Assembly (NCBI GenBank): GCA_964230645.1
Contig: CAXRHT010000002.1
Location: 256,001 to 320,000 of the forward strand
Direction of reading: 5' to 3'
Length of the DNA: 64,000 bases
DNA from: Bdellovibrionales bacterium
GTDB taxonomy: Bacteria; Bdellovibrionota; Bdellovibrionia; Bdellovibrionales; JAGQZY01
Part shown: positions 13,475-58,553 of the stretch, one piece after another
Layout: every line of letters begins with the position of its first letter
Numbering within the stretch: the stretch's first letter is position 1
Translations under genes and position numbers: made by a program
Notes under the pieces: generated by a model
Told to the model about the DNA's origin: nothing
What the model saw: only the letters and a program-made list of their open reading frames with translations
Database searches by the model: none

Positions 13475-14251
13475 ATGTATAAACTTATCATGTTCAAATT
13501 CCAAAGTCGTCTTTTGTGCCTTGTGGTTCTTATAGTTTGCTCTAGTTTTTCGGCACATGCGCAGTTGCTGTGTCAGCGCGTTTTTTACTCTCGCCCCAAA
13601 CTAAGTTTGTCAGGAAGAACAACCCCTGTGGTATCAGAGCAAACCTTAGCAGACAGGGATCGAAGGCAGCGGCAAGAGAGACTTCGTAATGACTCAACCC
13701 AGGTCTCAAGAGATCCCGAGCTTTTAAAAAGCTTAATTAAGAACAGAAAATACCACTCACTCAGCCGTTTGGACAGTCATGGCAAGAAAATCAGCTGGTT
13801 TCTCTCTCTAAGTGATAATGGACGATTCTATCGAATGGTGGTTCGTTACGATAGCTCTGGCCAAGCCATAGATATGTTTGCCGATGAACCCACTAGCCAG
13901 GTAGAAAAAGCCTATTTTCATAGTATTGTTCAGACCTATAATGTTGAAGCCATAAGTGCTGAAATCAACCTGCCTCGGCGAGGTAAAAGGGAACTTGTTA
14001 TTCACCCCACAATCCTAGTCAAATTGGATGTAAAACACGATATTACCGCGGATATGCTGATCAAAGCTCTTCGACAAATTCCAAGACATATCAAATATCG
14101 CCCCAATATTGATCCAAGATTTGCTGGTAAGGATTCCTTTCTCATATTTTTAGACATGGGCTTCCGAACCCCTCTGGAAGTCGTGATGGTTCATGAGGAT
14201 GACGCTTATTATATCGTGACCGCTTTTTTCCCGGATTCCTATCGCTACTAG
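13475..14251 (+). CDS. Secreted protein with CxxVF motif and C-terminal RelE/BrnT-like domain (putative)
   Basis: Signal peptide (AHA-Q), CQRVF, C-terminal KLDVKHDI...YYIVTAF pattern. Confidence 0.6.
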   Translation: MYKLIMFKFQSRLLCLVVLIVCSSFSAHAQLLCQRVFYSRPKLSLSGRTTPVVSEQTLADRDRRQRQERLRNDSTQVSRDPELLKSLIKNRKYHSLSRLDSHGKKISWFLSLSDNGRFYRMVVRYDSSGQAIDMFADEPTSQVEKAYFHSIVQTYNVEAISAEINLPRRGKRELVIHPTILVKLDVKHDITADMLIKALRQIPRHIKYRPNIDPRFAGKDSFLIFLDMGFRTPLEVVMVHEDDAYYIVTAFFPDSYRY

Positions 14252-14253
14252 TA

Positions 14254-17200
14254 TTAATTACTACAACACCACACCGGTAAAGAGTTACAAGGTAAAAGAC
14301 CATCATTAGTGGTACCCGTTTCATACACATTGTATCCCGAGTTTTTATAACCACCGATATCAGCCACCCATCCACGGTGTTGATTGGATGTATAATCGAC
14401 AAAATTCCCCATGCAGTTTATGGCATCATCGCCAGCATCTGGACGAGAGGTGTTACAAGAACCCGTTCCTCGTTCAGCCGCAGTACACACCCAGGTTCCT
14501 TGTGGGCAAGCCGCTTGAGCGCCGTACCAGGCCGCAGTAGTATAGCTTAAACCAAAATTAACACTGCCATTACTACAAAGCCCTGCTTCCACTCCTGATG
14601 TTCCATATCTTTGGGTTCCAGGTCTCCCCTCTCCCCAGAGTCGATTGTCGCCGGCACTATCCACTGAGCGTACCTCACCAACAACTTCAAGCTTTGCTTC
14701 GGGATCGGCAGTACCTATACCTACATCTCCGACTCTTGTAATCGTCATTTGTTCATCATAGTAGTCGCTACCAAAAGGATTAACCATTCCCTGTCCTAGT
14801 ACAATTCGATCGGCCCCTCCGTTATCAGAAACAATTCCTAAAAATCCGGTAGAGATTTCTTGATAAACGTTGGTGGCTTCAAATTTTAAAAAGGAAGCCG
14901 TATTATCAGCCTCCTCAGTGTTGGTAATTTTTAAAGAAGGACCACCTGGTGCAGATAAGGAACTTGAAGAGGACGAATAGGAGGTCGAATCTTGCTCAGA
15001 AGCCTGCATAAGCGCTGTCGGTGCTGTTGTTCCAATACCAACATTGCCCGTATTATCAATTCTAACTTTCTCACTCCCATTGGTGGAAAAACCAATGTTG
15101 TCAGCCGCTGGATTGAACAATCCCGTATTAGAGTCCGCAGAAAAGCTCATGGCCGGGGTTGAAGCTCCAGAATTACTTAGAAGTAACTCCGCACCAGCGT
15201 TTAGGGCGAAGTTTTGGTACGAAGTCGTTACAGAAGCCCCTCCGTCGATATTTAAAAAAGAGTTGAATCCCGAACAATCCGAATTCGCACAGTAACCAAA
15301 TGAAAAAAGTTCCAAACCACTGCTGGTTCTCATTGCGTAAGCATTAGAGAGATCATTGGGAGTCGTGTCATGGGCGATTATACCACTCGTGTCGGTGAGA
15401 ACCATTCTTCCTTCATTAGTAATAAATAGCGCATCTATTTCACTACCATCAGCGGAATCTAAAGAGTGACCGTCGCCACCCGAGGCTCCCCCACCAGCTT
15501 CCACCCATGCACTGCCATCATAAAATTTTAACTTATTAGAATCACCACTATCGACGGCAATGTCACCGGCTACAGGCGAGCCTGGTAGAGTCGAAGCCGT
15601 TAAGCGCATTGGCCCATTTATGTGTAACTTTCGTGCTGGAGCACTTGTGCCAATTCCAAGATTACCTGTGGGATCAATTCTTAAGGTCTCCGTCCCCCCA
15701 TTGGTAAAACCAATTGAGTTGGCTGCGGGTCGGAAAACTCCAGTGTCATCGTCATCTCGAAAAGAGTAGCTCGGATTTGTAACTCCCCCTCCCCAAAGAT
15801 TGATAAAAAACGAGCCACTTTGCCAACCGTAGAGACTTCCAGAATCGATCGTCATACGCTCGTTCCCACCGAGACTAAATGCCATGGCATCACCATAAGG
15901 ACTAAAAATTCCAGTATTGGTATCCCCATCAAAGGAAAACCCCGGAGTTGAACTGGCTCCCACATTGGCTAAAATCGTATCTCCGTCTGTGTAGCCAGCA
16001 CCTCCTGCGGCACCTGTGTCCACCCAACTAGATCCGTCAAAAAATTTTAATTTATTAGAGTCTCCGCTATCGATAGCTATATCACCAGCCGCAGGAGCCC
16101 CTGGAAGAGCCCCTGGATTCAAGCGAGCAGGGCCATCAACATGTAGCTTACGTGCTGGAGTCGTTGTCCCTATCCCTATATTTCCAGTTGAGTCGATGAC
16201 CAGTCGATCTTCTCCAGCAGTAGTAAAGCTCATTAGGTCAGCCCCGAGTCTATAAATTCCGGTGTCCACATCGGATGAAAATGAGAAGGAAGGTGTGGTT
16301 TTACTGGGAACTGAAGTAGACAAAAACCAAGATCCCACAGTGGGAGATTGAATGGCCTCTGGACTTACTATCATTCGCTGTTGTCCACCGGCATATAATC
16401 TAAACTGATTGGCCGAACCACTTCTAAAAATTCCTGTGTCCTCATCACCCGCAAAGTTGAGAGCATAGGATGAGCCCCTTAGGGTTAAAGCTCCGGTCAT
16501 ATCAACCGATCCATCAGCGAGGAAATCTCCACTTCCTCCTACAGGATCGACCCATGATAACGCTCCTGAACCGTCTGTTTGTAAAACTTGATTCGCATCC
16601 CCGTCATCTACTGGAAGTGTTAGAGTGTAGTTATTGGCTAAAGAAGCCGGCGCAATTATTTCTACATCGTTTAGTCCATTATCAGAGTCTTCTGACAGCC
16701 GAATGGCTCCAGCCGTTGAGGCGTTACCTCTAACTCTTAAAGTGCGATTAACGGACGAACTCGTTGAACCAAACGTAGCGAAAATCCCCCCTACATCACC
16801 CATTTCAATCTCTTGATTGGTCGGCTCCGTGGTTCCAGTCCCTGCAATCACTAAACTTGATGAAGAGGTTCCAGGTAAGAGACCGCCTGGGGAGTCTTCT
16901 ACTTGGATGATCCAACCGTCAGTGGTGTTATCAAGTTTGATTCCTGGATTTTCATCAGATTGAAGTTGTAAAACGGCGTGATTGCCGGCACCCGTAGCGT
17001 TCACTGTGAGGAGTTCTGAAGGGGCCGTTGATCCAATACCCACTCTTCCATTGGCATCAAGCCGAAGGCGTTCAGTTCCACCTAAAGAAAAACCGATTTG
17101 ATTCGAAGCTGGACGAAAAATTCCGGTATCAGAATCAGCCCAGAAAGAAAAGGCTGGGGTACTGGCATCAAGACCATCTCGAGTCATGAATCCGGTTCCG

Positions 17201-20200
17201 GCAAAAGTACCTGCCACAAATCCTGAAGGCGCAAACTGAAAACGTAAACTTCCTCCCAAGGAAAGGCCTAATTCATTCGCTCCGATACGATAAAATCCAG
17301 AGTCTTGATCTGCTGCAAAAGAAATGCTAGGTGCTGAGGCATTTCCAGAGGCGGCATCAAATTGCCCAGTCATTGCCACAGAACCATCGGCCAAAAAATC
17401 TCCTGAGCTGCCACCAATTCCACTAGATAAATCTAGACAATTAGTATTGTTCTCATCGCAAATTTCGGCTGCATTAATACTTCCAGTATGAACGTCTAAG
17501 GCAACAGCGGGAGCAGTGGTGCCAATACCGACATTTCCTGTTCCTGTTACGATCGCAGGACCTGAATTTGAAGTGAAATATCCAGCCACGCTGGTATCAC
17601 TTTGAGCACGGATAGCATAACTATCTAAAGAAAGGGCATCCACTCCGTACCCAGTATCCGATTCACCATAAACTCCCGTCGACGCACTCGAATATCCATA
17701 AACACCGATCACAGGTGAAGAGCCGTGAATCGCAATCCCATTTGTGGAGGACGCGTTTAGACCATAGTCAAAACCGGTGGAAGAAATATTAAGCTCTTCA
17801 CTGGCTGAATCCCATGACAAACCTGAAGTTGCGGCAAATGAGCCTGCATTATTGAACTGTAATTGTCCTGTACTACCAGCCGGAGTTCCTCCTCCTGCCG
17901 ATCCACCGGCTTCCACCCAACTAGAGCCGTCGTAAAATTTTAATTTGTTAGAGTCAGCGCTATCAAAATACAAATCCCCTGCGCTAGGAGAGCTTGGGAC
18001 TGCCTGTGGTGTCAGCCTCATGGCTCCATTAACATGCAACAGTCGCTCTGGTGCCGTTGTTCCAATTCCCACATTCTGTGTGGTGCTTTGAATCCTCATT
18101 GATTCATTGCCATCGTTGCTGAAAGTGATATCTTCACCAGCGAATGCACCAATATCAAATATCCCTGTGGCTTCGTTGAGAGTCAATACACCAGCACCGG
18201 CTCCATCTTGCAACATCAGTGTTGCAAAACCACCGGAATTATCAACCGTAACCACTGTTGAATCATTTGATTCTAGTCTTAATATATTGTTATTGGAACC
18301 AAGAGTTACGATACCGTCGTTTCCACCATTATTAATGTCCCCACCACCACCACTGATACCAGAGGAAAGATCTAAACAATTCGCATTATTTTCATCACAA
18401 ATTTCAGCTGCGTTAATGCTCCCTGTATTTACATCAAGTGCTACAACAGGAGATGAGGTCCCTACACCAACAAATCCGCCCGAATTCAAACGAAGCCTCT
18501 CAGAGCCATCAATTTGAAAGATAATATCGCTACCAGGGTTTGTATTATTGTCATCAGCCTGTAGTATAATTGATCCAGAGTTATCGGAAACGATCAATCC
18601 ATAGGCCCCAGTGTCTGAATCTTGAAGTCTAATTCCTGGAACCGCGCTATTTATATGCAAATTGTGAAGAGGATTAGTGGTTCCGATTCCAATAAGTCCT
18701 CCACTATTAATTGTCATTCTCGTCGTGTCGTTAGTCTCAAACCTTAAATCAAAGGCGTCGTTGGTACCAGTGGTTAGGTTCGCCCCCAGAGTATTTCCTC
18801 CATTAACTAAATAACCATCATCAGCAATAATCGCCTCTACTTCGGCACTTGATAGGACGAAATTACTTCGAGTCATTTTTCTCAAACCACCAGCAGAAAC
18901 ATCATGAATTAAAATTTCATCACCACTGGCTACAATGGCTTCACTTGTTTCATTGGTAATATCAACATTGACACCACTTCCATCCACTGAGATTCCTGAA
19001 CCTCCAGCGACTTCGATATCGTCGGCATTAACATTGATTCCATTACCCGCTCCGATAGCAAGAGTTAGATTGGTGGAAAGGTTGCCACCACCTGTTAGTC
19101 CCGCGCCAGAAATGATTTGTGTCGAGGTAGCTACTTTGTCACTATTAAGTTCAGCGATTGCTGCCTGTAAAGTCGTTGCCGTTAAGGGTGTAGTTCCAAC
19201 AGGAATGGCAGTGGGATCAAACTGGGCTTCATCCACTGTTAAAGTGACGACATCAGCAACTGTCGAAACTCCAATTTTAGTATTCGCAGACGCTAAACTT
19301 CTAAACTCAAAGTCCACTCCACTTTTTTGTTTGAAAATAGGTGAGCCCGCACCAACAGTAGAAGCCGTGTTAGCCTCTCCACCCGAAGCTGTGCCAAAAG
19401 CCTCCCAATTACTGCCATCACAAAAAGAAACAGATCCACCGACATATTTTAATGTTCCGGCTTTGGTGCCATCACAAGCATCAAGGTCGTCACCAATTTG
19501 TACGCCACCTGAAACCTGCAGTAACGAAGAAGGCTGAATTGTTCCAATACCAACGTTGCCATCAGAAGTGATCCTCATTCTCTCGTCGTAACCTCCGGAG
19601 CCGTTGTTTAGGAAGAGCAGGTCACCGTAACCATTTGTGGAGTCTGTTATTTTTGTTCCAATTACTCCGATTGAATCAGAAACAGAGTTACCCATCGATA
19701 CGGAAACCATCCGTCCAATGGCTCCTCCCTCTGCCGCATCATTCTGAATAAGAAGTCCGGCGTGGTTACCAAGTGTATTTGCATTGTTTCGTCCACGAAT
19801 GACGGCTCCCCAGTTCTTAGTTGTGTTAAAAGCTTTTAAGGGTACGGAGTCATCTGTTGTCTGAATGTCGAGACGATTTGAAGGGCTTGTTGTTCCGATA
19901 CCTACATTTCCTGCATAGTCGATTCGCATGGCCTCAGCCATGGGGTTAGTCCCAGTTGTTGAGGGATGAGTAAAGAATGCAATTCCTAACCTGTCAGAAC
20001 CTGACCCCTCCTGGACTGAAGAGATTGCAGCTCTTCTTTCAGTACTATCACTTTTACTCCAGGCAATCGCTGATCCATGTGAGGAAGCGCCTATCCCTCT
20101 ATTGTCCAAAAGAAAACCTGTTCCAGTCTGACTGGCCCCAGCAGAGGCGTCAAAACTTTCTCCAGCAGTCAAATGAAAAGGTGCCAACGGTGTTGATGTT

Positions 20201-22473
20201 CCGATTCCAAGGGAGCCACTTACAACAAGACGGTCATTTATCAACGCATCGTCGAGCACCTGCAATTGAAAAGAATTATCCACTTCTGTGCCCTCCCCGA
20301 TCAATACTCTTCCGTTTCCGTTCCCTATAGCACGTAAGGCAATATCACCCGTCGGAGTTTCGACACTTAACATTGGTGATCCACCTTTTATTTCGAGTGC
20401 ATGCGTTGGTGCTGTGGTTCCTATACCCACCATCCCACTATTTGCGACAGTCATGGCAATTGTGTTATTTGTTTCAAAATTTAAATCGAAATTATCATTA
20501 TTCCCTACTGTCAAATTCGCACCGGTACTGTTACCACCATCTTGAAGGTATCCATTGTTGGCTACAAAGCTATCAACCTCTGATTCCGACAAAACAAAGT
20601 TGGCGCGAGTCATTTCTTTTAAATTTCCAGCATCAGAGCTGTCGCGAATTAAAAGAGAATCCGTCCCTTGCACAATGGCTTCATCAGCAGTACCTGCAAT
20701 ATCAACGTTTACCCCACTGCCGTTAACACTAATTCCACTTCCCGCTCGCACTTCAATATCATCAGCGTTCACAGTGATTCCGTTACCAGCTCCAATATCA
20801 AAGCTTCGATCAGTGGAAAGATCACCACCACCCGTTAAACCTGCACCTGCGGTTAAAGCTCTACTATCAGAAACATAATCAAGGGGCTCTTTATCAACCC
20901 AACTTAATACTCCAGCGCCGCTTGTTGAAAGAACCTGCCCGGGTGTGCCGTCAGCTACCGGAAGTGTCCAAACAAATGATGAAGGAGCAGTGATTGTGTT
21001 GGGAGCCTTAAAACCAATGTATCTTGTACCGGTGTCTTGGAAGCGAATCTCTGTGGTAACTCCACCATTGAGATCCATAACGAGATTTCCGGTCATCGAG
21101 TCACCACTCTTAGCAAGCTTTTCAGTGCTTAACTCTTCAATCCCAGCTTGCACATTTGTGGCCGTATCAACATCGCCCCCATAGGTGTTATCAAAATCTA
21201 TCTGTGAAGCATCATAGTCACCCGCAAGCGCCGAAACGTTTCCAGACCTGCCAAAAACTTGTGTCACGCCAGCGTTTACGTCTTGCCATGAAAGAATACC
21301 ACTGCCATCAGTTTGTAAATACTGACCTGGATCACCATCATTATTTGGAAGAGTGAGATTAACATTTCCACCCAATGTTGCCGGAGATTTTAAAGAAACA
21401 TATTCCGTTCCATTAGCAGAATTTTCAAGCAGACGTAGTTCCATTTCATTATTAACTTGCAGGTTACCACCTGAAATTAGACCATTGGTCACACCAATGC
21501 CTCCACCCACGGTGACATTTCCGCCAGTTGTAATTTGATCGACATTGGTGATATTTTGATTTCCCATATCAATGGGGCCAGACATTGTTCCACCGGCAGT
21601 GGGGAGTTTTGTGGTGTCATCGATAACACTTGTGATCCACTGAGTTCCATCCCAACTGATCACTTTACCGACGTCAGCACCACCAGCAAGGGAACCAATA
21701 TTTGTCGTATCAACAGCTCGGCCTCCAATATAACTTCTAGCGTGGCGTACGTTCACAGCATCTGTGTCAGCGACAGGGTTAGGATCATCGAGGTTTATTA
21801 TTTTTTGGTTGTTGTTATCAACATCGGCTGTGGGAGCTCCGGCTGAAAAGCTAGAACTTGTGCCGTCAAGGAGGGCTTGAAGTTCTGTCCAATTGGCATC
21901 GTTAAAGACAAAATCAAGATTGGTTTGGGTAAGATTAAAACCTGTGCCACTATTGATCCTTAAAAGTTCTGAGGCGGTAATACCACTCACACTGGCTGCG
22001 TTGGCTGCATAGGGGACACTGACCACATTGTGATCCTGAGCGAGAGTCACAGGACCTGAACCATCATCAAAAGTGATTCTTAATTTTCTCCCATCACTAG
22101 GGTCAGGTGTATAAGTCGGCCCCGCAACACAATCATCAGGACTTACGACTCCTGTGAAATTATTAAGAGCATTGGTAAGAGTATTTAGATCTTGGAAACT
22201 GCCATCTCCGGGTCTTGCGCCCTCTCCGACTGTAACAGCAAAAATTCCGTTGGAGTTGATCATATTGAGCGTGTGGGACTCTTCATAAAGCACACAAAGC
22301 TCAGGCTCGGGCGAAAGAATTTCGACTTGAAAGTAAACGTTGTTAGCCTCTAAGGCCTGACCGTTGGGTTTAATAATCTGACCTTGGTAGGTAAAATAGG
22401 CGGGCGCTCCCAAGGCAAATGCCGGCAACACCATGGAAAGTAGTAATATTGAAAATCTTCCTCTTACGTGCAC
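14254..22473 (-). CDS. Giant (2739 aa) phage-tail-fibre-like trimeric adhesin of the Bdellovibrio MAT type
   Basis: Signal peptide, N-terminal TYQGQIIKPNGQALE..CVLYEE domain, many GNVGIGTTxP repeats, LTLPxxDGxxGQVLxTDGSGxLSW linkers, FSFxxDxDTGIFR repeats and a Cys-rich C-terminal tip. Confidence 0.9.
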   Translation of the reverse strand: MHVRGRFSILLLSMVLPAFALGAPAYFTYQGQIIKPNGQALEANNVYFQVEILSPEPELCVLYEESHTLNMINSNGIFAVTVGEGARPGDGSFQDLNTLTNALNNFTGVVSPDDCVAGPTYTPDPSDGRKLRITFDDGSGPVTLAQDHNVVSVPYAANAASVSGITASELLRINSGTGFNLTQTNLDFVFNDANWTELQALLDGTSSSFSAGAPTADVDNNNQKIINLDDPNPVADTDAVNVRHARSYIGGRAVDTTNIGSLAGGADVGKVISWDGTQWITSVIDDTTKLPTAGGTMSGPIDMGNQNITNVDQITTGGNVTVGGGIGVTNGLISGGNLQVNNEMELRLLENSANGTEYVSLKSPATLGGNVNLTLPNNDGDPGQYLQTDGSGILSWQDVNAGVTQVFGRSGNVSALAGDYDASQIDFDNTYGGDVDTATNVQAGIEELSTEKLAKSGDSMTGNLVMDLNGGVTTEIRFQDTGTRYIGFKAPNTITAPSSFVWTLPVADGTPGQVLSTSGAGVLSWVDKEPLDYVSDSRALTAGAGLTGGGDLSTDRSFDIGAGNGITVNADDIEVRAGSGISVNGSGVNVDIAGTADEAIVQGTDSLLIRDSSDAGNLKEMTRANFVLSESEVDSFVANNGYLQDGGNSTGANLTVGNNDNFDLNFETNNTIAMTVANSGMVGIGTTAPTHALEIKGGSPMLSVETPTGDIALRAIGNGNGRVLIGEGTEVDNSFQLQVLDDALINDRLVVSGSLGIGTSTPLAPFHLTAGESFDASAGASQTGTGFLLDNRGIGASSHGSAIAWSKSDSTERRAAISSVQEGSGSDRLGIAFFTHPSTTGTNPMAEAMRIDYAGNVGIGTTSPSNRLDIQTTDDSVPLKAFNTTKNWGAVIRGRNNANTLGNHAGLLIQNDAAEGGAIGRMVSVSMGNSVSDSIGVIGTKITDSTNGYGDLLFLNNGSGGYDERMRITSDGNVGIGTIQPSSLLQVSGGVQIGDDLDACDGTKAGTLKYVGGSVSFCDGSNWEAFGTASGGEANTASTVGAGSPIFKQKSGVDFEFRSLASANTKIGVSTVADVVTLTVDEAQFDPTAIPVGTTPLTATTLQAAIAELNSDKVATSTQIISGAGLTGGGNLSTNLTLAIGAGNGINVNADDIEVAGGSGISVDGSGVNVDITNETSEAIVASGDEILIHDVSAGGLRKMTRSNFVLSSAEVEAIIADDGYLVNGGNTLGANLTTGTNDAFDLRFETNDTTRMTINSGGLIGIGTTNPLHNLHINSAVPGIRLQDSDTGAYGLIVSDNSGSIILQADDNNTNPGSDIIFQIDGSERLRLNSGGFVGVGTSSPVVALDVNTGSINAAEICDENNANCLDLSSGISGGGGDINNGGNDGIVTLGSNNNILRLESNDSTVVTVDNSGGFATLMLQDGAGAGVLTLNEATGIFDIGAFAGEDITFSNDGNESMRIQSTTQNVGIGTTAPERLLHVNGAMRLTPQAVPSSPSAGDLYFDSADSNKLKFYDGSSWVEAGGSAGGGTPAGSTGQLQFNNAGSFAATSGLSWDSASEELNISSTGFDYGLNASSTNGIAIHGSSPVIGVYGYSSASTGVYGESDTGYGVDALSLDSYAIRAQSDTSVAGYFTSNSGPAIVTGTGNVGIGTTAPAVALDVHTGSINAAEICDENNTNCLDLSSGIGGSSGDFLADGSVAMTGQFDAASGNASAPSISFAADQDSGFYRIGANELGLSLGGSLRFQFAPSGFVAGTFAGTGFMTRDGLDASTPAFSFWADSDTGIFRPASNQIGFSLGGTERLRLDANGRVGIGSTAPSELLTVNATGAGNHAVLQLQSDENPGIKLDNTTDGWIIQVEDSPGGLLPGTSSSSLVIAGTGTTEPTNQEIEMGDVGGIFATFGSTSSSVNRTLRVRGNASTAGAIRLSEDSDNGLNDVEIIAPASLANNYTLTLPVDDGDANQVLQTDGSGALSWVDPVGGSGDFLADGSVDMTGALTLRGSSYALNFAGDEDTGIFRSGSANQFRLYAGGQQRMIVSPEAIQSPTVGSWFLSTSVPSKTTPSFSFSSDVDTGIYRLGADLMSFTTAGEDRLVIDSTGNIGIGTTTPARKLHVDGPARLNPGALPGAPAAGDIAIDSGDSNKLKFFDGSSWVDTGAAGGAGYTDGDTILANVGASSTPGFSFDGDTNTGIFSPYGDAMAFSLGGNERMTIDSGSLYGWQSGSFFINLWGGGVTNPSYSFRDDDDTGVFRPAANSIGFTNGGTETLRIDPTGNLGIGTSAPARKLHINGPMRLTASTLPGSPVAGDIAVDSGDSNKLKFYDGSAWVEAGGGASGGDGHSLDSADGSEIDALFITNEGRMVLTDTSGIIAHDTTPNDLSNAYAMRTSSGLELFSFGYCANSDCSGFNSFLNIDGGASVTTSYQNFALNAGAELLLSNSGASTPAMSFSADSNTGLFNPAADNIGFSTNGSEKVRIDNTGNVGIGTTAPTALMQASEQDSTSYSSSSSSLSAPGGPSLKITNTEEADNTASFLKFEATNVYQEISTGFLGIVSDNGGADRIVLGQGMVNPFGSDYYDEQMTITRVGDVGIGTADPEAKLEVVGEVRSVDSAGDNRLWGEGRPGTQRYGTSGVEAGLCSNGSVNFGLSYTTAAWYGAQAACPQGTWVCTAAERGTGSCNTSRPDAGDDAINCMGNFVDYTSNQHRGWVADIGGYKNSGYNVYETGTTNDGLLPCNSLPVWCCSN

Positions 22474-22672: not shown

Positions 22673-22969
22673 ATGCAAAAAAATCAAAACAACTCATTAA
22701 AAAGCCTAAAGCCTCTCATTAAGGCTTTTGTTAGTCTTAAAACTAACAATGAATGTGAAGACTTTCTTTACGACATCTTCACCCCTGCAGAACTGCAATC
22801 TTTGCGCGACCGTTTAGAGGTGGCTCAAAGAATCCTAAAGGGGGAAAGTTATCGCAGCATTGCCCAAGTCACTCAATGCTCTACGGCAACCATCACTCGT
22901 GTCGGTCGAACCCTTAAGTATGGTCGACAAGGGTACCAAAAGGTTCTTAAACCAATGGAGTTAAAGTAA
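22673..22969 (+). CDS. yerC: YerC/YecD family TrpR-related repressor
   Basis: FLYDIFTPAELQSLRDRLEVA..SYRSIA..STATITRVGRTLKYG. Confidence 0.9.
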   Translation: MQKNQNNSLKSLKPLIKAFVSLKTNNECEDFLYDIFTPAELQSLRDRLEVAQRILKGESYRSIAQVTQCSTATITRVGRTLKYGRQGYQKVLKPMELK

Positions 22970-22974: not shown

Positions 22975-23571
22975 ATGTTCCCCTCTCTCATCGCTCTTAT
23001 GACTCTCTTTTTCAGTGCTACTTGTTTTGGAGCCCCCGTATGCTCCGATATTTTTAAACCAGCCCCACAAGAATTCTACGAGGCCGCTGTTTTTCCTGGC
23101 GACCCGGAATGGATGGTCTCACTTTTTGATCGCCGTATTCATGAGCAAGAATTTAAAATCTTCCCTCGTGACGAGGGTGTTATTCGTTGGCTACAAAAAA
23201 TAGCCCGCTTAAATCAGGAATACCCTATCGCTTCTCTGAGTCGCAATCGAGGTCTTATTGAGATCTCAAAGGATGTGTGGGAGCGTTTTATAAAAGAAGA
23301 TTTTAATGAAATTTTAATTCTACTCGAAGGTGTCGAGTTAGAGCGCAGTAACCGTTCCCCCAATAGGGATGTTGTATCTCAAACAAAAATTCCTTTCCTT
23401 TTTGAGGCCAATGAGGACACCACCGCCGGGGTTTATACATTGGAGCTTGAGCGTTCTGTGATCGAGTTTATGTTAAAGATGGAAGAACCCGCCTACTATT
23501 CACAGGCCATAGAAAATGGCTGGTACCGGGTGAGCCGCCGCTACACTCCTCCCCCAAGAAATCCTTACTAA
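22975..23571 (+). CDS. Secreted hypothetical protein with CxxIF motif
   Basis: Signal peptide (CFG-A) followed by PVCSDIF. GGAG RBS. Confidence 0.65.
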   Translation: MFPSLIALMTLFFSATCFGAPVCSDIFKPAPQEFYEAAVFPGDPEWMVSLFDRRIHEQEFKIFPRDEGVIRWLQKIARLNQEYPIASLSRNRGLIEISKDVWERFIKEDFNEILILLEGVELERSNRSPNRDVVSQTKIPFLFEANEDTTAGVYTLELERSVIEFMLKMEEPAYYSQAIENGWYRVSRRYTPPPRNPY

Positions 23572-34333: not shown

Positions 34334-35293
34334 CTACAGATTGTCTAAAGAGAATCGAATTTTGTCTTCAGCACTCATGTTTTTAGTATCAACCATGGCC
34401 ACTTTTTGCAGCCGTGGTAAGAGTCCCGTTTTGTTGGCAATTTGAATCGATAATCCAGGACGAGCGTTCATCTCTAAAATCAACGGCCCTCGGATGGGGT
34501 CGATCACGATATCCACTCCAAGATACTGAATGCGCGCAAGGCCTGAACACTGAGCCGCTACGGAGAGAACCTGCTTCCACATAGGAATTTCAAGACCAAC
34601 GAGTTCTCTATCGCCACAATCCGGGTGATGAACGATCCGCTTATTTTCCTGAACCGCACCGTTGATCTTTCCTGTCTGCAGATTGATTCCGCAACCCACA
34701 GCCCCTTGGTGCAGATTTCCCCGACCTCCCGAGGAGCGTGTAGGAAGTCTCACCATGGCCATCACCGGAAATCCTCGAAACAGGATCACTCGGATGTCAG
34801 GAATTCCTCGATAACTAATTTCCTTAAAGAAGGGGTGGATGGCGAGCTTCTCTTGGAAAATGGCACGATCCAACTGCCCGGCAAGAGAAAATACACCACT
34901 GAGAATCATTGAGATATAATAAATAAACTCGTCATAGGACATATCCGCCTGACGAGTGGTAATGATTTTGGTCTTCTTTTTAGACTCATTCCACTCCACT
35001 CCTTCAACGATAACAATCCCATTACCCATAGCCCCTTTAGCAGGCTTAACCACAAACTCTCCCGCATCTTTAATTTGAGCGTGAAGATTTTTGGTATCAC
35101 TAATGGCGGCAATAATCCCACGGGTTTTCGGATGGGGAATCCCTTTAGAGAGCAAAAGTTGGCTGGTGAGGAATTTATCATCCACTAAAGGGTAATCCCT
35201 TTTATTGTTATAAGGGAGAATGAAGTCTCGAATCCGGCGGTTGTTTCCAAGAACACCGGCCTTGGCTAGGTCACGAAAAGACACCATCTTCAT
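34334..35293 (-). CDS. Alpha-L-glutamate ligase-like ATP-grasp protein (RimK-related, TIGR02291-like)
   Basis: GVLGNNRR..YPLVDDK, VVKPAKGAMGNGI, GIPDIRVI, AMVRLPT..GRGNLHQGAVG and LEMNARPGLSIQIAN. Confidence 0.92.
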   Translation of the reverse strand: MKMVSFRDLAKAGVLGNNRRIRDFILPYNNKRDYPLVDDKFLTSQLLLSKGIPHPKTRGIIAAISDTKNLHAQIKDAGEFVVKPAKGAMGNGIVIVEGVEWNESKKKTKIITTRQADMSYDEFIYYISMILSGVFSLAGQLDRAIFQEKLAIHPFFKEISYRGIPDIRVILFRGFPVMAMVRLPTRSSGGRGNLHQGAVGCGINLQTGKINGAVQENKRIVHHPDCGDRELVGLEIPMWKQVLSVAAQCSGLARIQYLGVDIVIDPIRGPLILEMNARPGLSIQIANKTGLLPRLQKVAMVDTKNMSAEDKIRFSLDNL

Positions 35294-36890
35294 CTTCCTT
35301 TAACTGAGCAAAGCGAAAAAGCTCAAAGAGACGATAACCTCTATAACTACCGATCATTAAGTTTAAGCCGACGGCAAGAAGCAACATCTCTGGATTATTG
35401 AAAAGGAAAACCTTGAGCCATTTAAAAGCCAAAAGATAATAACAGAGGGCTGCGACCACGAAGGTTCCAAGAGAAGTCTTTAGGGTATTTGAAGCCCCCT
35501 CCTCTATGTAATAAATGCTAAATCTTTCGATAAAAACCGTGATGATGACAATGGGAAAATAGTTTAAGGTTTTATTGTTAACCGCTAATATTCCAAAGGA
35601 ATCGGCCGCAATCGCAAAAAGAATATATAGAAGAATCACTACGGCAAGAAGTATCGATAGCCTCGGCACTGCGAGCAAGTAGAACTTATCCAGCAGAGCT
35701 CTTTGCATAAGGCCCACTATCACCACTAAAAAGAGAAAAGAAAACCCAAACACAAAACTTGTTTCTAAAAAGAAAAGCGTCAGGAGGATGGGCATAAAAA
35801 TCCCAAACGTATTAATCCCTACAAAGACTCTTGCAAAAGAAAGGACAACAGTTCCAAAAGGAATAAGAACAATTCCAAGAAAGATCGATTGAATCGATAA
35901 AGAGAATCGGTGAAGAGAGAATATGGACCAGAAAGAGCTCAATTCACTGAGACTTTGCAACTGTTCCTTAGAGCTCATGGGGTCAAACTTCACTGGATCA
36001 AGAAGCATTCCAATAAGGTCTCTTCTCTCAAGAAAACTGGCAAAATTTTCGGTGTCTCGGCTGAGAATAATTTGGTTTCCCGTGACCTTTCCCATCAACC
36101 TTTTTTCTGGAAAAAGAGGGATCCACTGCCCTTCAATAAAAGCCTCGGTAAAAAACATACGGGTGTAGCGGATTTTCTCACCGGCCTTGCTATCAAGGAT
36201 TTGAATTCCAAAAGCAATTCTTGCTGGAATCCCGTTTAAGCGCGAAAGCCCCATAAGAGTTTGGGCTTGAGCCAAATAGCTACCACTGGCCAGATCGATC
36301 ACATCTTTAACGGTATGGGGCTCGGCTTTTAATACAATCTCGTCGGCTAAATAAAAGAAAAACTTCTCAAGCTTTGTCTCGGTCGTATCACTATGAAAAA
36401 CCAGGGTGTCTGAGAGTTTCTTGAGAAGCCCTAAGGTTTCCTCATCAAAATTGTCCATGGACAAATAGCGCATGCGGTCTTCGTAGTCCAAACGTACACT
36501 ACGGTCCCTAGCATTAATGAAATCATAGAACTCAGTATTAACGTCAAAATGAAGACTGGTTGTGCGACTCGCCCCACCTTCTTTGCCAAATTGTAACAGT
36601 GAAGGGGCGGACTCCTCTTCCGAGTCAGGAGAGATGGGTTTACCATTAATTGTGACATTCATCACTTCTTGCGAAGGAAGTGATTTTGGTACTGGAAGCA
36701 CATAGGGAGGTTCAATCTCTTGGCTATCAACCCGGTAAATATTCTCCCAGTTGAGCGACATTTCCACCTTCCAGAAGGTGGTGGCTTTCTTAGGAATAAG
36801 GCGCAAACCTAAAAATTGCGTTTTATATATCAGACTGGCCAATGGTAGCAGCACACAAAGGACGATCAGGGCTGTCTTCAAACGTTTCAA
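35271..36890 (-). CDS. Inactive transglutaminase-like domain fused to 7TM domain
   Basis: RLNGIPAR without a catalytic Cys. 7TM part has GINTFGIFMP, LLAVPRL, FPIVI..IER and YRGYRLFELFRF. Confidence 0.9.
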   Translation of the reverse strand: MKRLKTALIVLCVLLPLASLIYKTQFLGLRLIPKKATTFWKVEMSLNWENIYRVDSQEIEPPYVLPVPKSLPSQEVMNVTINGKPISPDSEEESAPSLLQFGKEGGASRTTSLHFDVNTEFYDFINARDRSVRLDYEDRMRYLSMDNFDEETLGLLKKLSDTLVFHSDTTETKLEKFFFYLADEIVLKAEPHTVKDVIDLASGSYLAQAQTLMGLSRLNGIPARIAFGIQILDSKAGEKIRYTRMFFTEAFIEGQWIPLFPEKRLMGKVTGNQIILSRDTENFASFLERRDLIGMLLDPVKFDPMSSKEQLQSLSELSSFWSIFSLHRFSLSIQSIFLGIVLIPFGTVVLSFARVFVGINTFGIFMPILLTLFFLETSFVFGFSFLFLVVIVGLMQRALLDKFYLLAVPRLSILLAVVILLYILFAIAADSFGILAVNNKTLNYFPIVIITVFIERFSIYYIEEGASNTLKTSLGTFVVAALCYYLLAFKWLKVFLFNNPEMLLLAVGLNLMIGSYRGYRLFELFRFAQLKEDEDGVFS

Positions 36891-37549
36891 CGTTTATCTC
36901 CTAGTAACCGTGACTGAGAGACGTCGACGATATAGTCGCCTAATAAAAGGTTACGTCCCACCAGAAAACGATGTCTTAGATTTTCCCGGTTATTCAGGTT
37001 GACGTTAACATCCAATTCTCTTTTTCCAAACAAAAGAGTCATTTTAACCACATAACGTCGTTCAACCACACCCGAGGTTCCTTTTACTTTTGACATCTCT
37101 ACTACCTTCTTCAAGTAGCGGTGGGGTTTGCCCTCCTCGTCGCGAGTGGTGAACTCAACATGCTTTTCGCCATCAATGGTTTTTTCGGTGATCTTTTCGG
37201 CATGTAGTGAGCAAGTTTGCGCTCCTGTATCGATTCGAGCGCGAAAGCTCACCTCAGGTGAAACAGAGGTAATCCATTCCACTCGTCCTATAACGATCTT
37301 TTTAAAAACCTTCTTTTTAAGTGTTTGTTGAGAGCGTGATTTGATTTTTCGGCTACCGAGCTGGATTTCTCGAAGCTCCGGCATGATTTCGTTACGGATG
37401 GTAAGAGTGACGTCCTCAGAGATTTCCGCGCGTGCTTGTTCAATCTCCTGCTGAACCATGCGGAGCTGATTGGGCGTAAGGTTATCGGGGGGCTTCGACT
37501 GACAACCTACAACAAGAAACAATAAGAACAATAGACCTAAACGTAACAA
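36887..37549 (-). CDS. RimB/ATP-dependent zinc protease-family (retropepsin-like) lipoprotein
   Basis: VVGC lipobox, IGRVEW, ARIDTGAQTCSLHA and LVGRNLL. Confidence 0.9.
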   Translation of the reverse strand: MLRLGLLFLLFLVVGCQSKPPDNLTPNQLRMVQQEIEQARAEISEDVTLTIRNEIMPELREIQLGSRKIKSRSQQTLKKKVFKKIVIGRVEWITSVSPEVSFRARIDTGAQTCSLHAEKITEKTIDGEKHVEFTTRDEEGKPHRYLKKVVEMSKVKGTSGVVERRYVVKMTLLFGKRELDVNVNLNNRENLRHRFLVGRNLLLGDYIVDVSQSRLLGDKR

Positions 37550-50831: not shown

Positions 50832-50857
50832 AATGCTCCCCTTTGACCTTTAGTTTA

Positions 50858-52041: not shown

Positions 52042-52081
52042 ATATGCAGTAGACGATATGCAAAAGACGATATCTAGTAAT

Positions 52082-52115: not shown

Positions 52116-52117
52116 TT

Positions 52118-52741: not shown

Positions 52742-52750
52742 TGCAGCAAC

Positions 52751-53281: not shown

Positions 53282-53424
53282 GATCTCTCTCCTTTTTTGG
53301 TTTGTTGGAGCCGATCTTTTGACATGCAAATTACATAACTTCAATTATTTTTTACATATTGTAACTTTTTTGAGGATGCAAATAGCAAAACTCGAGTCAT
53401 GACTCGCTTTAACGCAGCCGGTTG

Positions 53425-54051
53425 TTAAACGAGAATTCTATCGATTACCTGGTCTAATTTTTCTTTGAAGGAGCGCGGTAGGCGCTTTTTTTGAGCGCCC
53501 TCGGTGGCTAACATTTTAATAAATAAGCCCACAGCGTACTCGTGAATCATGGCCGCAATCTGTTTAGAGTCCGCGGTTTTAGGAAGGAGACCTTCCCGCT
53601 CGGCTTGTTGAACATAGCGGTAAACGCGCTCGCCACCGAGTTTAAAAGCGCGCTGCCCTGTTTTGCCATTGGACCCATCAAGACTACTGTAATAGTAGGT
53701 CAAAAGGATAATCTTGGCTTGGTCGCGGTGATGAAACCCCCAATTGATATTTTCATAACAGTGGGTCCTTAGCGCCTCAACTCCATCCATTGTGTTTTTG
53801 ATTTTGGCGTCCACCCAAGTGTGATTGTTAAAGGATACATATTTTCTAACGGCAAGAAGGAGATTCTCCTTACTCTCAAAGTGCTTCAAAATAAGGGGAT
53901 GAGAGGTGGCCGTCTCTCGGGCAATTTCCTTTAGAGTCACGTGATTGAAGCCATCCTGACTAAAAAGCCTAATGGCGCCCTTCATAATTTTAATTTTTGT
54001 CTCTTGTCCCTTTGTCAGGTCCGAAGAAGCAAACCAATTCCAATCTTGCAA
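53425..54051 (-). CDS. TetR/AcrR family regulator
   Basis: AIRLFSQDGF..TLKEIARE..HFESKENL HTH. Confidence 0.9.
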   Translation of the reverse strand: MQDWNWFASSDLTKGQETKIKIMKGAIRLFSQDGFNHVTLKEIARETATSHPLILKHFESKENLLLAVRKYVSFNNHTWVDAKIKNTMDGVEALRTHCYENINWGFHHRDQAKIILLTYYYSSLDGSNGKTGQRAFKLGGERVYRYVQQAEREGLLPKTADSKQIAAMIHEYAVGLFIKMLATEGAQKKRLPRSFKEKLDQVIDRILV

Positions 54052-54192
54052 TATTGTCCTCTTTTTCGCTGGTGGGTTTATCTTAATAGAAAAAATGGAA
54101 AAAATATAGAAGGTCCAACAAAGATTGAAAACAATCCAAGACTCTCCTAATCTTAATTAAGATCTTGTAACTCTTCTCCTCAGGACGGCTTT

Positions 54193-55755: not shown

Positions 55756-57102
55756 TTACAGCCCCCAGGGATCGTCTTGGTCAAAGGAGAAACGACTGTT
55801 GTCATCAAAACTTTGCTCCTCTCTGGCCAACTGAACAAACTGATCTAAAAGATCTAGCCCCAGTCTTGGATCTTCAATAATCAATAGGTCTTTAAGGAGA
55901 TTCTCTAAATTACGCCAATTGGGGATATATTGATCTTTAATTTCGAGGGGAATGGAACGGAAGACCACCCATAGTTTTTCTACAAGTTCTCGGTAATTCA
56001 GGAAAATTTGATCTAATTTTTGGGCCCCTAGCCGTGTTGTCTCATTGTATTCTTCAAAAGCCTGTCTAAAAAAATAATTGGCTTCCTCAAGGGAATTGAT
56101 CTCGATGCGAATTTGATCCACCTGACGATTGACCCGAGTCACTTGATCAAATCTCTGCGCCCATCCTCTTCGAAAGCGGGCGTGCACATCGGCGTCCATG
56201 GCACCCTGGGACTGCCCTCTCACTGTGGGCAGGATAGATTTATCATAATGCCGATTAATAAAGTCTCGACCTTTTATTTGAATAAGAGTGAGGCCGTCAT
56301 GAGTTTTGATGGGCAGCATCAGTCCTGTTTCAGACTCCCGGTAAACGATTTCAAAGCCCTTTTCTACCTGAAGAGGAATAAGAGATTCTCTTGTCACACC
56401 GTAAATGATCAGTTGATCAATCTCAGGAGTAAAGCGTTGAAAGACCGAGTACTCGCTATCGTTGTAGTGCGTGTCGACAAGGCCAGCCACATAGGCATAG
56501 GCCGCATCGACAACATCGACAAAATATTTAGGTCCATCGAGAAGTCCCAATTCTATCACGCTCTCGCCTTTTTCTCTTGCCGGTAAAATAAGATCGGGAT
56601 TGCGACGCTCCATCGGCAGGCGCGAATCCGTCCAGGAGGCCTCATGCCACTGTTTTCCATAGCGATAAGGCAGCGGGGAACCATCAAAGATACGAATTCC
56701 TCCCTGCTCGCCGTTGTACTCAAAACTGATATATTCTGAACGCAAAGGGGATAAGCTCCTATCGAGTGCATAAAGGGCGTTGATCTGAGCCACCGTATAA
56801 TGTCCTGATTGCAACCAGTTGCTGAGGGTCTTTTTTACGATTTCATCAGTCACCGGAACTGAGGTATTTTCATTGAATACATTGAGACCGGCTTGAAATC
56901 TTCGGGTTTGCCTGGTGGACTGGCGTGTGGTGAGAGCAAACTCAACCGGTGAAAAAACTTGCCGACATTGGCCCGCATTCTTTGGTCCAAAACTTTGTGC
57001 ACGACCAGTCGAATAGACGCTTAGATTCGACACAGCTGTTGAGGCTTTAATCGCTGTGAACATACTAAAAACGAAGACCGTCAGTGTCGCAAAATATTTC
57101 AA
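55756..57102 (-). CDS. Secreted CxxVF-motif protein with putative GNAT/acyl-synthase-like domain (paralog A)
   Basis: Signal peptide, CRQVF, GGIRIFDGS..LPME..VIELGLL. Similar to the upstream gene. Confidence 0.65.
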   Translation of the reverse strand: MKYFATLTVFVFSMFTAIKASTAVSNLSVYSTGRAQSFGPKNAGQCRQVFSPVEFALTTRQSTRQTRRFQAGLNVFNENTSVPVTDEIVKKTLSNWLQSGHYTVAQINALYALDRSLSPLRSEYISFEYNGEQGGIRIFDGSPLPYRYGKQWHEASWTDSRLPMERRNPDLILPAREKGESVIELGLLDGPKYFVDVVDAAYAYVAGLVDTHYNDSEYSVFQRFTPEIDQLIIYGVTRESLIPLQVEKGFEIVYRESETGLMLPIKTHDGLTLIQIKGRDFINRHYDKSILPTVRGQSQGAMDADVHARFRRGWAQRFDQVTRVNRQVDQIRIEINSLEEANYFFRQAFEEYNETTRLGAQKLDQIFLNYRELVEKLWVVFRSIPLEIKDQYIPNWRNLENLLKDLLIIEDPRLGLDLLDQFVQLAREEQSFDDNSRFSFDQDDPWGL

Positions 57103-58553
57103 AGTTCCCCCTCACCCATTTCATGTAAATAAGTGCGATTGGCTAAGAACTGTACTGGATCTCTGAGTAAAAATTCGAGCATAGCAAAATAACTCAAACC
57201 CGCTTCCTTAGGAACATGTGAGCCGAGGAGGTTTTGAAGAAGTGATAACACTCTTCTCTCGGTGGCATCGCTATAGGTTTGCGAGAAAATATCATCGGGC
57301 AAAGAATTGCGTAGTAATATAAATCGGGCCAATAGATCCATTATTGGTCCTTGCTTATCGCCTGAGCCTTGTTGGATTTGAACATAATTTATAATAAGGT
57401 TTTCCATTTCCTGAAAAAACTCATCAATAGTTGAAATACCATAAAGGTCTTGTGGCAGCTTCTTATAGGCAATGTCTAACTGTGATTTGTAAAAATCTCG
57501 GATTTTTTCCTCGTTCCTTAAACCATTGGCATTTCCAAACAAAGGCTGATGAAAACGGAGATTAAAATATTTACTCAAAAAATCAGATCCCTTGATATGA
57601 AAGATATAATAGCGCTTTTCCTTCTTGGTCATGAAAACAGGAAAACCTTGGGCATCTAAAAGGGGATCTATATCTAAAGTGCGCTGATAATAGGGCACTA
57701 ATTTTTCGCTTGAGTAAAAAACGATATCAACATCGTCGTTTTCAATATAATTTTTGCGACCAAAATTAAAAAAGCTTCTCTGATTGTAGTGCAGATCAAG
57801 CAGGTCTGCGGCCTGAGCAAACAAAGTTAACAAAGCTGAGTCCTGCTTGCCAGCAACACTACCAAGTCCCAGTGACCAGGTGTACTGCGACCTGGAAATG
57901 CCTCGGGCTTTTAAGGCCTCATCCAACTGAAAGCCTGGAAAAACCTGTTCAGCGATCTCCTTGGTGTCGCTCTCAGAAAGTTCGGGAACAGTGCGCCTGC
58001 GAGAAAAAGACTTCATAACGGGGGAAGAATCAAAGATTCTGAGGGCTGAGAAAAGAGCTCCTTGAGTGCTGGTGAAGTTTGAGGTCTCATTTTCACGGCG
58101 AGAAAGGTTAAGTTGGGGGAATCGCCCGTCCTCAACACTCTCCACACTGATAATTTTAAGGCGATGGGGAGATAAGCGACGATGCAGAGAAAAAGCTCTA
58201 TCAACCTCTTCGGCCGAATAGAACCCACTTCGCTTCCACTCCATAAGAACGCGAGCCACCACTGTTTCGGAGAGCTCTTTAAAAGAGTCAATGGGCTGCT
58301 CGTTTAACTGCATCCCACGAGCCTGATCGTTACGCCGACCGCCATCCATAGAAAAACTGGCCGTTCTTTGAATACGAATATTAGAACCTGGTCCATTGCT
58401 GGCGAAAACAGACTGACAACGTAACATTTTATGACCAATATTTACGGCACTTTGATTTGATACTGAATCATACACAGAGATAAAATAATCAGTCGCCATA
58501 ACCATGGGACTGGTGACTAGTACCATAAAAAGAAACAAAAATTTGAACCGCAT
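57099..58553 (-). CDS. Secreted CxxVF-motif protein (paralog B)
   Basis: Signal peptide from MRFKF and CQSVF. Shares W..SGxY, LSPxR, RIFDxSP, DxHYN and IKGxDF blocks with paralog A. Confidence 0.65.
   Translation of the reverse strand: MRFKFLFLFMVLVTSPMVMATDYFISVYDSVSNQSAVNIGHKMLRCQSVFASNGPGSNIRIQRTASFSMDGGRRNDQARGMQLNEQPIDSFKELSETVVARVLMEWKRSGFYSAEEVDRAFSLHRRLSPHRLKIISVESVEDGRFPQLNLSRRENETSNFTSTQGALFSALRIFDSSPVMKSFSRRRTVPELSESDTKEIAEQVFPGFQLDEALKARGISRSQYTWSLGLGSVAGKQDSALLTLFAQAADLLDLHYNQRSFFNFGRKNYIENDDVDIVFYSSEKLVPYYQRTLDIDPLLDAQGFPVFMTKKEKRYYIFHIKGSDFLSKYFNLRFHQPLFGNANGLRNEEKIRDFYKSQLDIAYKKLPQDLYGISTIDEFFQEMENLIINYVQIQQGSGDKQGPIMDLLARFILLRNSLPDDIFSQTYSDATERRVLSLLQNLLGSHVPKEAGLSYFAMLEFLLRDPVQFLANRTYLHEMGEGEL

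What the first reader, a model, noticed from the sequence alone, without database searches (positions are those of the whole stretch)
13475..58553. Candidate undescribed effector class: secreted proteins with a lone-cysteine C-x-x-[VI]-F tag
Seen: four proteins have a Sec signal peptide followed by the same short motif: 13475..14251 (CQRVF), 22975..23571 (CSDIF), 55756..57102 (CRQVF) and 57099..58553 (CQSVF). In all four, that Cys is the only cysteine in the predicted mature chain, and it is not in a lipobox. The downstream domains fall into three unrelated types. Two of the four sit on either side of the giant fibre gene. Inference: an unpaired Cys in an exported protein suggests an intermolecular disulfide or other modification that loads diverse cargo onto a common carrier or export route, for example for delivery into prey. 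I do not know of a description of this tag.
Basis: partly seen in the sequence, partly recalled or inferred. Interest (0 to 1): 0.8.

Follow-up and report, generated by a model that had tools for sequence, protein, structure and literature searches.

The report
Cysteine address tag on predator effectors
Many unrelated enzymes with export signals in Bdellovibrio-type predatory bacteria, often of kinds that normally work only inside a cell, carry the same short lone-cysteine tag just after the signal, and this tag likely addresses them for delivery into prey.

Summary
Observation confirmed and much wider than the window. All four ORFs have a Sec-type signal followed by C-x-x-[VILA]-F, with that Cys the only one in the predicted mature chain. 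The genome holds about 29 such genes; 14 of 869 signal-peptide-like proteins carry Cxx[VI]F near the cleavage site against 0.8 expected. All intact homologues of the four keep the tag (7/7, 3/3, 8/8). It occurs across the order and in other lineages of the phylum: 148 proteins fall into 103 unrelated clusters. The cargo includes Fic, ADP-ribosyltransferase, kinases, GNATs, nucleases, topoisomerase IB and a whole MoxR system. It is not a lipobox, and the fibre flanking is incidental. The syntenic orthologue of B. bacteriovorus Bd2033, a transposon-defined predation gene that peaks at prey entry, is tagged. Ten paper searches found no description. This scan noted the same tag before on other DNA (e1-3313322, e1-2984804).

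The parts
13475..14251 (+). Tagged protein P0001 (258 aa): signal peptide, CQRVF tag, about 40-aa variable linker, cargo of unknown family
   Evidence: tag in 7 of 7 homologues; no Pfam, NCBIfam or PDB match (12,25,103,134)
13571..13585 (+). Tag codons CQRVF (C33)
   Evidence: C33 invariant in alignment A5
22975..23571 (+). Tagged protein P0002 (198 aa), cargo of unknown family, 5 nt downstream of a TrpR-like gene
   Evidence: tag in 3 of 3 homologues at 24-26% identity
23041..23055 (+). Tag codons CSDIF (C23)
55756..57102 (-). Tagged protein P0003 (448 aa): signal peptide, short spacer, CRQVF, predicted GNAT (FeeM/LuxI-like) domain and helical tail
   Evidence: (Foldseek FeeM 2g0b E 1e-3, prob 1.0)
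56953..56967 (-). Tag codons CRQVF (C46)
   Evidence: C46 and F50 invariant in 10 of 10 rows of A6
57099..58553 (-). Tagged protein P0004 (484 aa), paralogue of P0003, upstream of it with a 4-nt overlap
58404..58418 (-). Tag codons CQSVF (C46)
14254..22473 (-). Giant MAT-type fibre gene (2739 aa); a neighbour only, not part of the tag system

Best explanation
The C-x-x-[ILV]-F motif is a short lone-cysteine tag shared by many unrelated signal-peptide enzymes of Bdellovibrionota, and it likely works as an address label that hands them to a common receptor for delivery into prey, probably into the prey cytoplasm. Steps: (1) Sec export and cleavage at the AxA site, leaving the Cys usually at about +3/+4 (predicted by heuristic). 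(2) The tag is an independent segment, predicted to be one amphipathic helical turn before a variable linker (linker shown in alignments, helix predicted). (3) A predator protein reads it, most likely through a mixed disulfide or thioester with the unpaired Cys, which would be released in a reducing cytoplasm (inferred; partner unknown). (4) The cargo acts where ATP, NAD, acyl-CoA or DNA are present, that is in prey cytoplasm (inferred from cargo chemistry). Unfolded Sec export would also spare the predator from its own cargo, which fits the scarcity of coupled immunity-like genes (inferred).
For: Enrichment 14 of 869 vs 0.8 expected. Tag kept in homologue sets found without the motif: P0001 7/7 (17,23), P0002 3/3 (135), P0003/4 8/8 with an N-terminus, Fic family 46 of 51, where 2 more keep the Cys and 3 lack the N-terminus; C29 is the only invariant column in the first 90 residues. 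148 tagged proteins form 103 BLAST clusters. Unpaired Cys: of 116 profile-found proteins from 48 other genomes, 82 have no other Cys and 104 an odd count, against 55 of 313 untagged signal-peptide proteins of G000. Cargo: 33 of 103 had a Pfam hit (some under cut-off); by my sorting 22 of those 33 need nucleotides, cofactors or DNA (42,51). No peptidoglycan-enzyme family among 143 tagged proteins scanned (12,24,42,51,71). Eight neighbouring tagged genes in G187 include a MoxR AAA+ ATPase with two Walker-A-like loops, WD40 proteins and a transglutaminase-like protein (48,51,124). Position is flexible: about +26 in the P0003 family, and behind a true lipobox and tether in L141:7370-8905 (48,50). 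Tag flanks are more alike within a genome than between genomes for non-paralogous cargo (1.45 vs 1.09 matches of 6; 0 of 1000 permutations). Tag has low confidence in both AlphaFold models (93,111), which fits an independent segment. The tagged Fic of B. bacteriovorus YOA24 is syntenic with HD100 Bd2033 (72,75,76). Bd2033 is a Tn5 predation gene up-regulated at 30 min (PMC2797640), is in the predation-induced set shared with Bacteriovorax marinus (PMC3526173), and is in the EntryPeak cluster, log2FC 1.77 at 45-60 min (PMC12546842 supplements). Few tagged genes have a coupled downstream gene: 16 of 29 end convergently and 2 of 29 have a closely coupled co-oriented gene.
Against: No receptor or machine found: no recurring neighbour across the loci (50), no CsgG match (90), no shared promoter word above null (118). 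Bd2033 is absent from the proteome of uninvaded killed prey (PMC11003981 supplements; sampled at 300 min, shallow). The predation link rests on one family, and HD100's own Bd2033 sequence was not read. Three other entry- or growth-peak enzyme families (IucA/IucC, GH3, EEP) were untagged in named Bdellovibrio genomes (0 of 13 distinct ORFs in 15 loci), so the tag does not mark early-predation enzymes in general. Some cargo (trehalase, lipases, proteases) needs no cytoplasm, and 70 of 103 cargoes have no Pfam hit. Named B. bacteriovorus genomes gave only 3-5 tagged genes each (63,69), and family f20 only 1 true tag among 9 long-frame or spurious hits checked (47,131). The within-genome similarity may reflect GC bias and kinship. 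Predation was not shown for G000 or most other carriers, and non-predatory lineages could not be identified.
Confidence: 0.55

Rival explanations
1. The Cys is lipidated in a non-canonical way (for example by the second Lgt or an acyltransferase), and the motif anchors the enzymes to the predator's outer membrane or vesicles, which then reach prey by fusion or contact.
For: Lone conserved Cys followed by a disordered linker, like a lipoprotein tether (75,80,91). Two Lgt paralogues in G000 and in most of 161 phylum genomes (89,101). Hydrophobic +3/+4 residues could sit in a membrane.
Against: No [LVI][ASTVI][GAS]C in 148 tagged proteins (91; partly built in by my filter) nor, by reading, in the 46 Fic homologues found without the motif. 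The hydrophobic region ends about 10 residues before the Cys, against 2 in 183 lipoproteins. The tag can lie about 26 residues from the cleavage site and co-occurs with a real lipobox (48,50). Lgt number does not track the tag: G042 has tags with one Lgt found, and tag-poor f20 mostly has two (47,48,101).
Confidence: 0.2
2. The tag binds a periplasmic chaperone, inhibitor or thiol oxidoreductase that holds the enzymes inactive or stable in the predator's periplasm; export then goes by the general type II route, and the enzymes act in the bdelloplast once prey contents leak.
For: Self-protection during export is documented for wall enzymes of this predator (PMC13689555 passages). A type II system is encoded and secretion is 'largely unexplored' (PMC12622784 passage). 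Some cargo needs no cytoplasm (24).
Against: ATP-, NAD- and CoA-dependent cargo would be harmless in a periplasm, so it needs no inhibitor there. Bd2033 peaks at entry, before bulk prey lysis (120,123).
Confidence: 0.15
3. The Cys forms homodimers or links tagged proteins to each other into mixed assemblies, with no dedicated receptor.
For: Odd Cys counts (114); tandem arrays of tagged genes (40,48).
Against: Most tagged genes in G000 stand alone (118), and a fixed hydrophobic-Phe pair across 103 clusters suggests one shared binding pocket.
Confidence: 0.07
4. Chance, or ordinary lipoproteins or disulfide proteins misread.
For: The motif is short; 12 of 36 F-ending and 21 of 25 other regex rows were dropped by eye as lipoproteins, membrane or Cys-rich proteins.
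Against: Shuffle test (17), invariance in homologue sets found without the motif (75,79,80,102,135), and E. coli K-12 control with 3 weak hits, none tagged (92,100).
Confidence: 0.02

Closest known systems
Bacterial lipoprotein signal (lipobox; Lgt/LspA/Lnt) and the Bacteroidetes lipoprotein export signal (recalled, not from a call)
   Same: A conserved Cys near the N-terminus of exported proteins, followed by a disordered linker
   Different: No lipobox; an AxA site lies upstream; the Cys is about 10 residues from the hydrophobic region and not residue +1; fixed hydrophobic +3 and Phe +4; can occur behind a real lipobox
Post-signal effector motifs of eukaryotic pathogens: oomycete RXLR, Plasmodium PEXEL, powdery mildew Y/F/WxC (recalled)
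   Same: A short linear motif just after a signal peptide on a large, fast-evolving set of unrelated cargo aimed at another cell
   Different: Bacterial, Cys-first helical motif with no sequence relation; no evidence of cleavage at the motif; target cells are bacteria
Curli N22 targeting peptide for CsgG, type VIII secretion (recalled)
   Same: An N-terminal segment left after Sec cleavage routes a protein across the outer membrane
   Different: No CsgG match in G000; cargo are globular enzymes, not amyloid subunits; a Cys is central
AB toxins whose A chain is disulfide-linked to a carrier (cholera A1-A2, typhoid CdtB-PltA; recalled)
   Same: Sec-exported catalytic chain; a Cys that could be released by reduction in the target cytoplasm; the Bd2033-like model has an ART-like domain (Foldseek E about 0.009)
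   Different: One tag on more than 100 cargo clusters; no B-subunit or carrier gene is linked; no disulfide shown
Bd2033 of B. bacteriovorus HD100 (Fido-domain protein; PMC2797640, PMC3526173, PMC12546842)
   Same: Its syntenic orthologue in strain YOA24 and 46 of 51 homologues carry the tag
   Different: The passages I read treat it as a hypothetical or Fido protein and do not mention a tag; the window proteins are not Fic proteins

Membership tests
Lipoprotein (signal peptidase II substrate) | Lipobox [LVI][ASTVI][GAS]C | tested here: not met
   0 of 148 (filter partly excludes it); none by reading in the 46 Fic homologues found without the motif
Lipoprotein (signal peptidase II substrate) | Cys directly after the hydrophobic region | tested here: not met
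   Mean hydropathy falls at about -10 in tagged proteins against -2 in 183 lipoproteins; about 26 residues past the cleavage site in the P0003 family
Lipoprotein (signal peptidase II substrate) | Diacylglyceryl on the Cys | not testable with these tools
   Needs mass spectrometry
Sec / signal peptidase I substrate | n-, h- and c-regions with an AxA site | tested here: met
   Own heuristic, not SignalP: Ala at -4 in 53%, Ser/Ala at -6 in 62%; an AxA-type site within 8 residues in 118 of 148
Curli / type VIII secretion substrate | CsgG pore in the genome | tested here: not met
   No PF03783 match in G000, 99.6% complete
Disulfide-linked AB toxin | Linked carrier or B-subunit gene | tested here: not met
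   No recurring untagged neighbour beside different cargoes; 16 of 29 end convergently
Disulfide-linked AB toxin | Interchain disulfide through the Cys | not testable with these tools
   Odd Cys counts fit, but no partner is known
Post-signal effector address motif (RXLR/PEXEL-like, by analogy) | Enriched just after the signal peptide on unrelated cargo | tested here: met
Post-signal effector address motif (RXLR/PEXEL-like, by analogy) | Needed and sufficient for delivery into the target cell | not testable with these tools
   Bench test required; Bd2033 not seen in uninvaded killed prey
GNAT, FeeM/LuxI-like (cargo of P0003/P0004) | GNAT fold | tested here: met
   Model pLDDT 78; Foldseek FeeM E 1e-3, target TM 0.58-0.68, AHL synthases next; Pfam only E 0.068 in 1 of 10

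The most novel reading that the evidence does not exclude
Bdellovibrionota have an undescribed two-step effector pathway: Sec export, then covalent loading through the C-x-x-[ILV]-F cysteine onto a dedicated carrier that moves Fic, ADP-ribosyltransferase, kinase, nuclease, topoisomerase, sigma-region-4 and MoxR cargo into the prey cytoplasm, where reduction frees them. The tag would define the predator's cytoplasmic effectome, including the predation gene Bd2033.
Probability: 0.3. Interest if true: 0.93.

Novelty: new variant of a known kind. Interest (0 to 1): 0.8.

Why it matters
How Bdellovibrio-type predators get killing and hijacking enzymes into prey is open: secretion is called largely unexplored (PMC12622784, passage), and secreted agents alone kill prey (PMC11003981). 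A five-residue tag lets the effector set be listed in any genome of the phylum, points to more than 100 mostly unknown antibacterial enzyme clusters, and gives a one-codon test in the model strain through Bd2033. If it is a portable address, it is also a handle for finding the delivery machine.

Tried and rejected
Fibre link: homologous loci lack the fibre, and 1 of 8 fibre paralogues is flanked (17,114,135). Co-located machinery: 1219 frames from the loci clustered; recurring untagged neighbours were housekeeping or syntenic genes (50). Shared promoter: best word p 1.5e-6, inside the null range of 8 random sets (118). Second Lgt: nearly universal in the phylum, so not discriminating (89,101). 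CsgG: none (90). Tag profile against PDB sequences: 2 irrelevant hits (39); against 1.84 billion representatives: 1 hit at E<=0.001, profile too short to inform (94), so range outside the phylum is untested except E. coli K-12 (92,100). ESM Atlas for P0001 and P0003: best scores 0.81 and 0.88, leads only (96,97). A BrnT/RelE-like reading of the P0001 cargo is by eye only; Pfam and PDB gave nothing (103,134). Prediction that other entry- or growth-peak enzymes are tagged failed (125-128). G000 has no full orthologue of the Bd2033-like Fic (91). Accession look-up could not be made (70), so Bd2033 is assigned by synteny and annotation. No complex was predicted, for want of a candidate partner. 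Paper searches found no description of the tag; two gave background and Bd2033; most subscription papers are not in the library, and Tudor et al. was not read.
Full report
OBSERVATION. The four ORFs are present, two on + and two on the minus strand. Each has a hydrophobic signal region, an AxA-type site and C-x-x-[VI]-F, with no other Cys after the predicted site. P0003 and P0004 are paralogues, so the window holds three independent cargo types. Signal peptides were called with my own heuristic; SignalP was not available.

GENOME SCAN. The window is G000:C2:256001-320000. Among 869 signal-peptide-like proteins, 14 have Cxx[VI]F within -3..+12 of the predicted site (shuffle mean 0.8, maximum 4 in 300); later windows hold 3,0,0,1,0; 3 of 2212 other proteins match at positions 18-33. 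From I kept by eye 24 of 36 F-ending rows and 4 of 25 others, and added P0004: 29 genes, 22 with no other mature Cys. This set is hand-picked, and L029 is doubtful. With a stricter caller, 10 of the 13 proteins whose lone Cys lies in the first 35 mature residues have the motif.

CONSERVATION. Homologues found by whole-protein search keep the tag: P0001 7 of 7, P0002 3 of 3 at about 25% identity (132,135), P0003/4 8 of 8 with an N-terminus, one further locus being cut by a contig end (98-100). C46 and F50 are invariant in that alignment (102). In a 770-aa Fic family, 46 of 51 have the motif, 2 more keep the Cys, 3 lack the N-terminus, and 44 of the 46 have no other Cys (75,79).

RANGE. Profiles of the N-terminal segment (A1, A2) were run on 41 relatives and 161 phylum genomes (32,44), and hits were checked by reading: 19 of 26 loci (35), 39 of 40 regions (40), 20 of 26 loci (47), 17 of 20 regions (48), and 9 of 20 weaker hits plus 2 unclear (131). 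Tags were verified in 9 of 13 families of the order and in f15, f17, f18, f19, f20, f21 outside it, with a variant in f27; f20 gave only a Fic. Named B. bacteriovorus s4 and YOA24 and Bdellovibrio sp. HCB209 carry a few each (55,60,63,69); genus g25 of the same order has near-identical proteins, which places G000 in Bdellovibrionales. E. coli K-12 gave 3 weak hits, none tagged (92,100). The first look of these searches is lossy, so counts are lower bounds.

ANATOMY. Consensus S-x-[SA]-x-A | [AQ]-[LN]-[QTS]-C-x-[ED]-[LIV]-F, then a Pro/Ser/Thr/Gln-rich linker (41,91); no Pro at +1..+4 in 116 (124). 148 proteins form 103 clusters (114; four duplicate or spurious rows dropped). Cargo Cys content is 0.15% against 1.03% in the proteome (91). 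Of 116 profile-found proteins from 48 genomes, 104 have an odd number of mature Cys, against 55 of 313 untagged signal-peptide proteins (114). No lipobox in 148, and the hydrophobic region ends about 10 residues upstream (91); my filter partly enforces this, but the Fic set found without the motif agrees (75). The tag may sit about 26 residues in (102) or behind a true lipobox (L141:7370-8905), which argues for a motif read from the side and against N-terminal Cys chemistry. AlphaFold puts it in a helix with pLDDT near or under 50 in two models (93,111).

CARGO. G000: two alpha/beta hydrolases, Fic, ParB-like, trehalase, weak C39 and PAD hits, PI3/4K-like and small kinases (24,25; some by eye from 26). 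Elsewhere 33 of 103 hit Pfam (42,51): sigma70 region 4, topoisomerase IB, Fic, ADP-ribosyltransferase, PPDK, GNAT, methyltransferase, FMO, DUF559, DUF2779, MoxR, WD40, ankyrin and others; I count 22 as needing nucleotides, cofactors or DNA. Three Fic proteins have the full HPxxxGNGR motif while the G000 one lacks the His (122). G187 has eight tagged neighbours, including MoxR (48,124). No wall-enzyme family in 143 scanned. P0003 folds as a FeeM/LuxI-like GNAT (111,115); P0001 and P0002 remain unassigned.

LINK TO PREDATION. The tagged Fic of YOA24 follows YfgM-like, BamB-like and small lipoprotein genes (69,75; the YfgM and BamB labels are my reading), matching HD100 Bd2030-Bd2033, where Bd2033 is the only Fido entry in the proteome table (72,76); a 96% identical B. 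bacteriovorus Fic has the tag (74,75). HD100's own sequence was not read. Bd2033 is among Tudor's transposon predation genes and is up at 30 min (PMC2797640, passages), is in the predation-induced set shared with B. marinus (PMC3526173, passages), and rises from 6.27 to 8.03 at 30 min, then falls to 4.83 (PMC12546842: abstract, sections 8 and 11, supplement 3 part 1 and searched rows, supplement 4 part 1, rows of 5; file 6 unreadable). Its model is Fic plus an ART-like domain (93,106). Against: it is not in the uninvaded-prey proteome (PMC11003981: passages, section 9, supplement searches; 108-110,113); the tagged FAD enzyme beside PrpF has no row among Bd283x/Bd284x (76); and IucA/IucC, GH3 and EEP enzymes were untagged.

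MECHANISM. Shown: enrichment, conservation, odd Cys counts, independence from cargo, cytoplasm-type cargo. Predicted: signal peptidase I cleavage, helix. Inferred: a common receptor, Cys chemistry, delivery to prey cytoplasm. No receptor was found: no recurring neighbour (50), no CsgG (90), no shared promoter (118), and two Lgt copies that do not track the tag (89,101). I put the address-label reading at 0.55, non-canonical lipidation at 0.2, periplasmic holding at 0.15, mutual cross-linking at 0.07.

NOVELTY. It fails the lipobox, curli and AB-toxin tests and resembles RXLR/PEXEL-type motifs only by analogy (all recalled, not from calls). Searches found no description; a 2026 review has no hit for 'motif' or 'cysteine' (PMC13689555, passages). 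Subscription papers and bioRxiv supplements were not searchable. This scan noted the tag earlier in two other genomes (30,36,116); those notes are not independent evidence. I class it as a new variant of a known kind (post-signal address motif), with a 0.3 chance of a new delivery pathway. Interest 0.8, because Bd2033 makes the question directly testable.

Noticed in passing
L139 (G187:C2:20000-39900): Eight neighbouring genes, all with signal peptide and tag, include a two-ring MoxR AAA+ ATPase, WD40 proteins and a transglutaminase-like protein: a MoxR ternary-type system apparently bound for export.
   Followed up: partly
L187:2463-4754 (-), G195: The Bd2033-like protein models as a Fic domain fused to a C-terminal ADP-ribosyltransferase-like domain; not mentioned in the passages I read.
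   Followed up: partly
G000:C2:425141-426187 and C2:1450666-1451391: Two Lgt paralogues; the first has a long insertion. Two copies are the rule across the phylum.
   Followed up: partly
L141:7370-8905 (-), G176: Lipoprotein with lipobox, tether and then the tag; relatives in G032 and G176 have an ordinary signal peptide plus tag.
   Followed up: partly
L047:544-1602 (-), G039; L065:2757-4724 (+), G007: A topoisomerase IB with its catalytic-Tyr motif and a sigma70 region-4 protein, both with signal peptide and tag.
   Followed up: partly
window 14254..22473; G000:C2 near 521675: The window's fibre gene has a paralogue 94% identical over its first 420 residues, one of 8 in the genome.
   Followed up: no
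window 22673..22969 (+): TrpR-like gene directly upstream of P0002; the pairing is kept in G002 and G008.
   Followed up: partly
window 34334..37549 (-): Three-gene set that by eye resembles an inactive RimK-type ATP-grasp, transglutaminase-like membrane protein and aspartyl-protease module.
   Followed up: no
window 11257..12558 and other G000 genes: Several lipoproteins have an F-Q-N-C type lipobox directly after the hydrophobic region, distinct from the tag.
   Followed up: no
L239 and L240 (G180:C5): Two tagged genes 120 kb apart share an identical N-terminal stretch.
   Followed up: no
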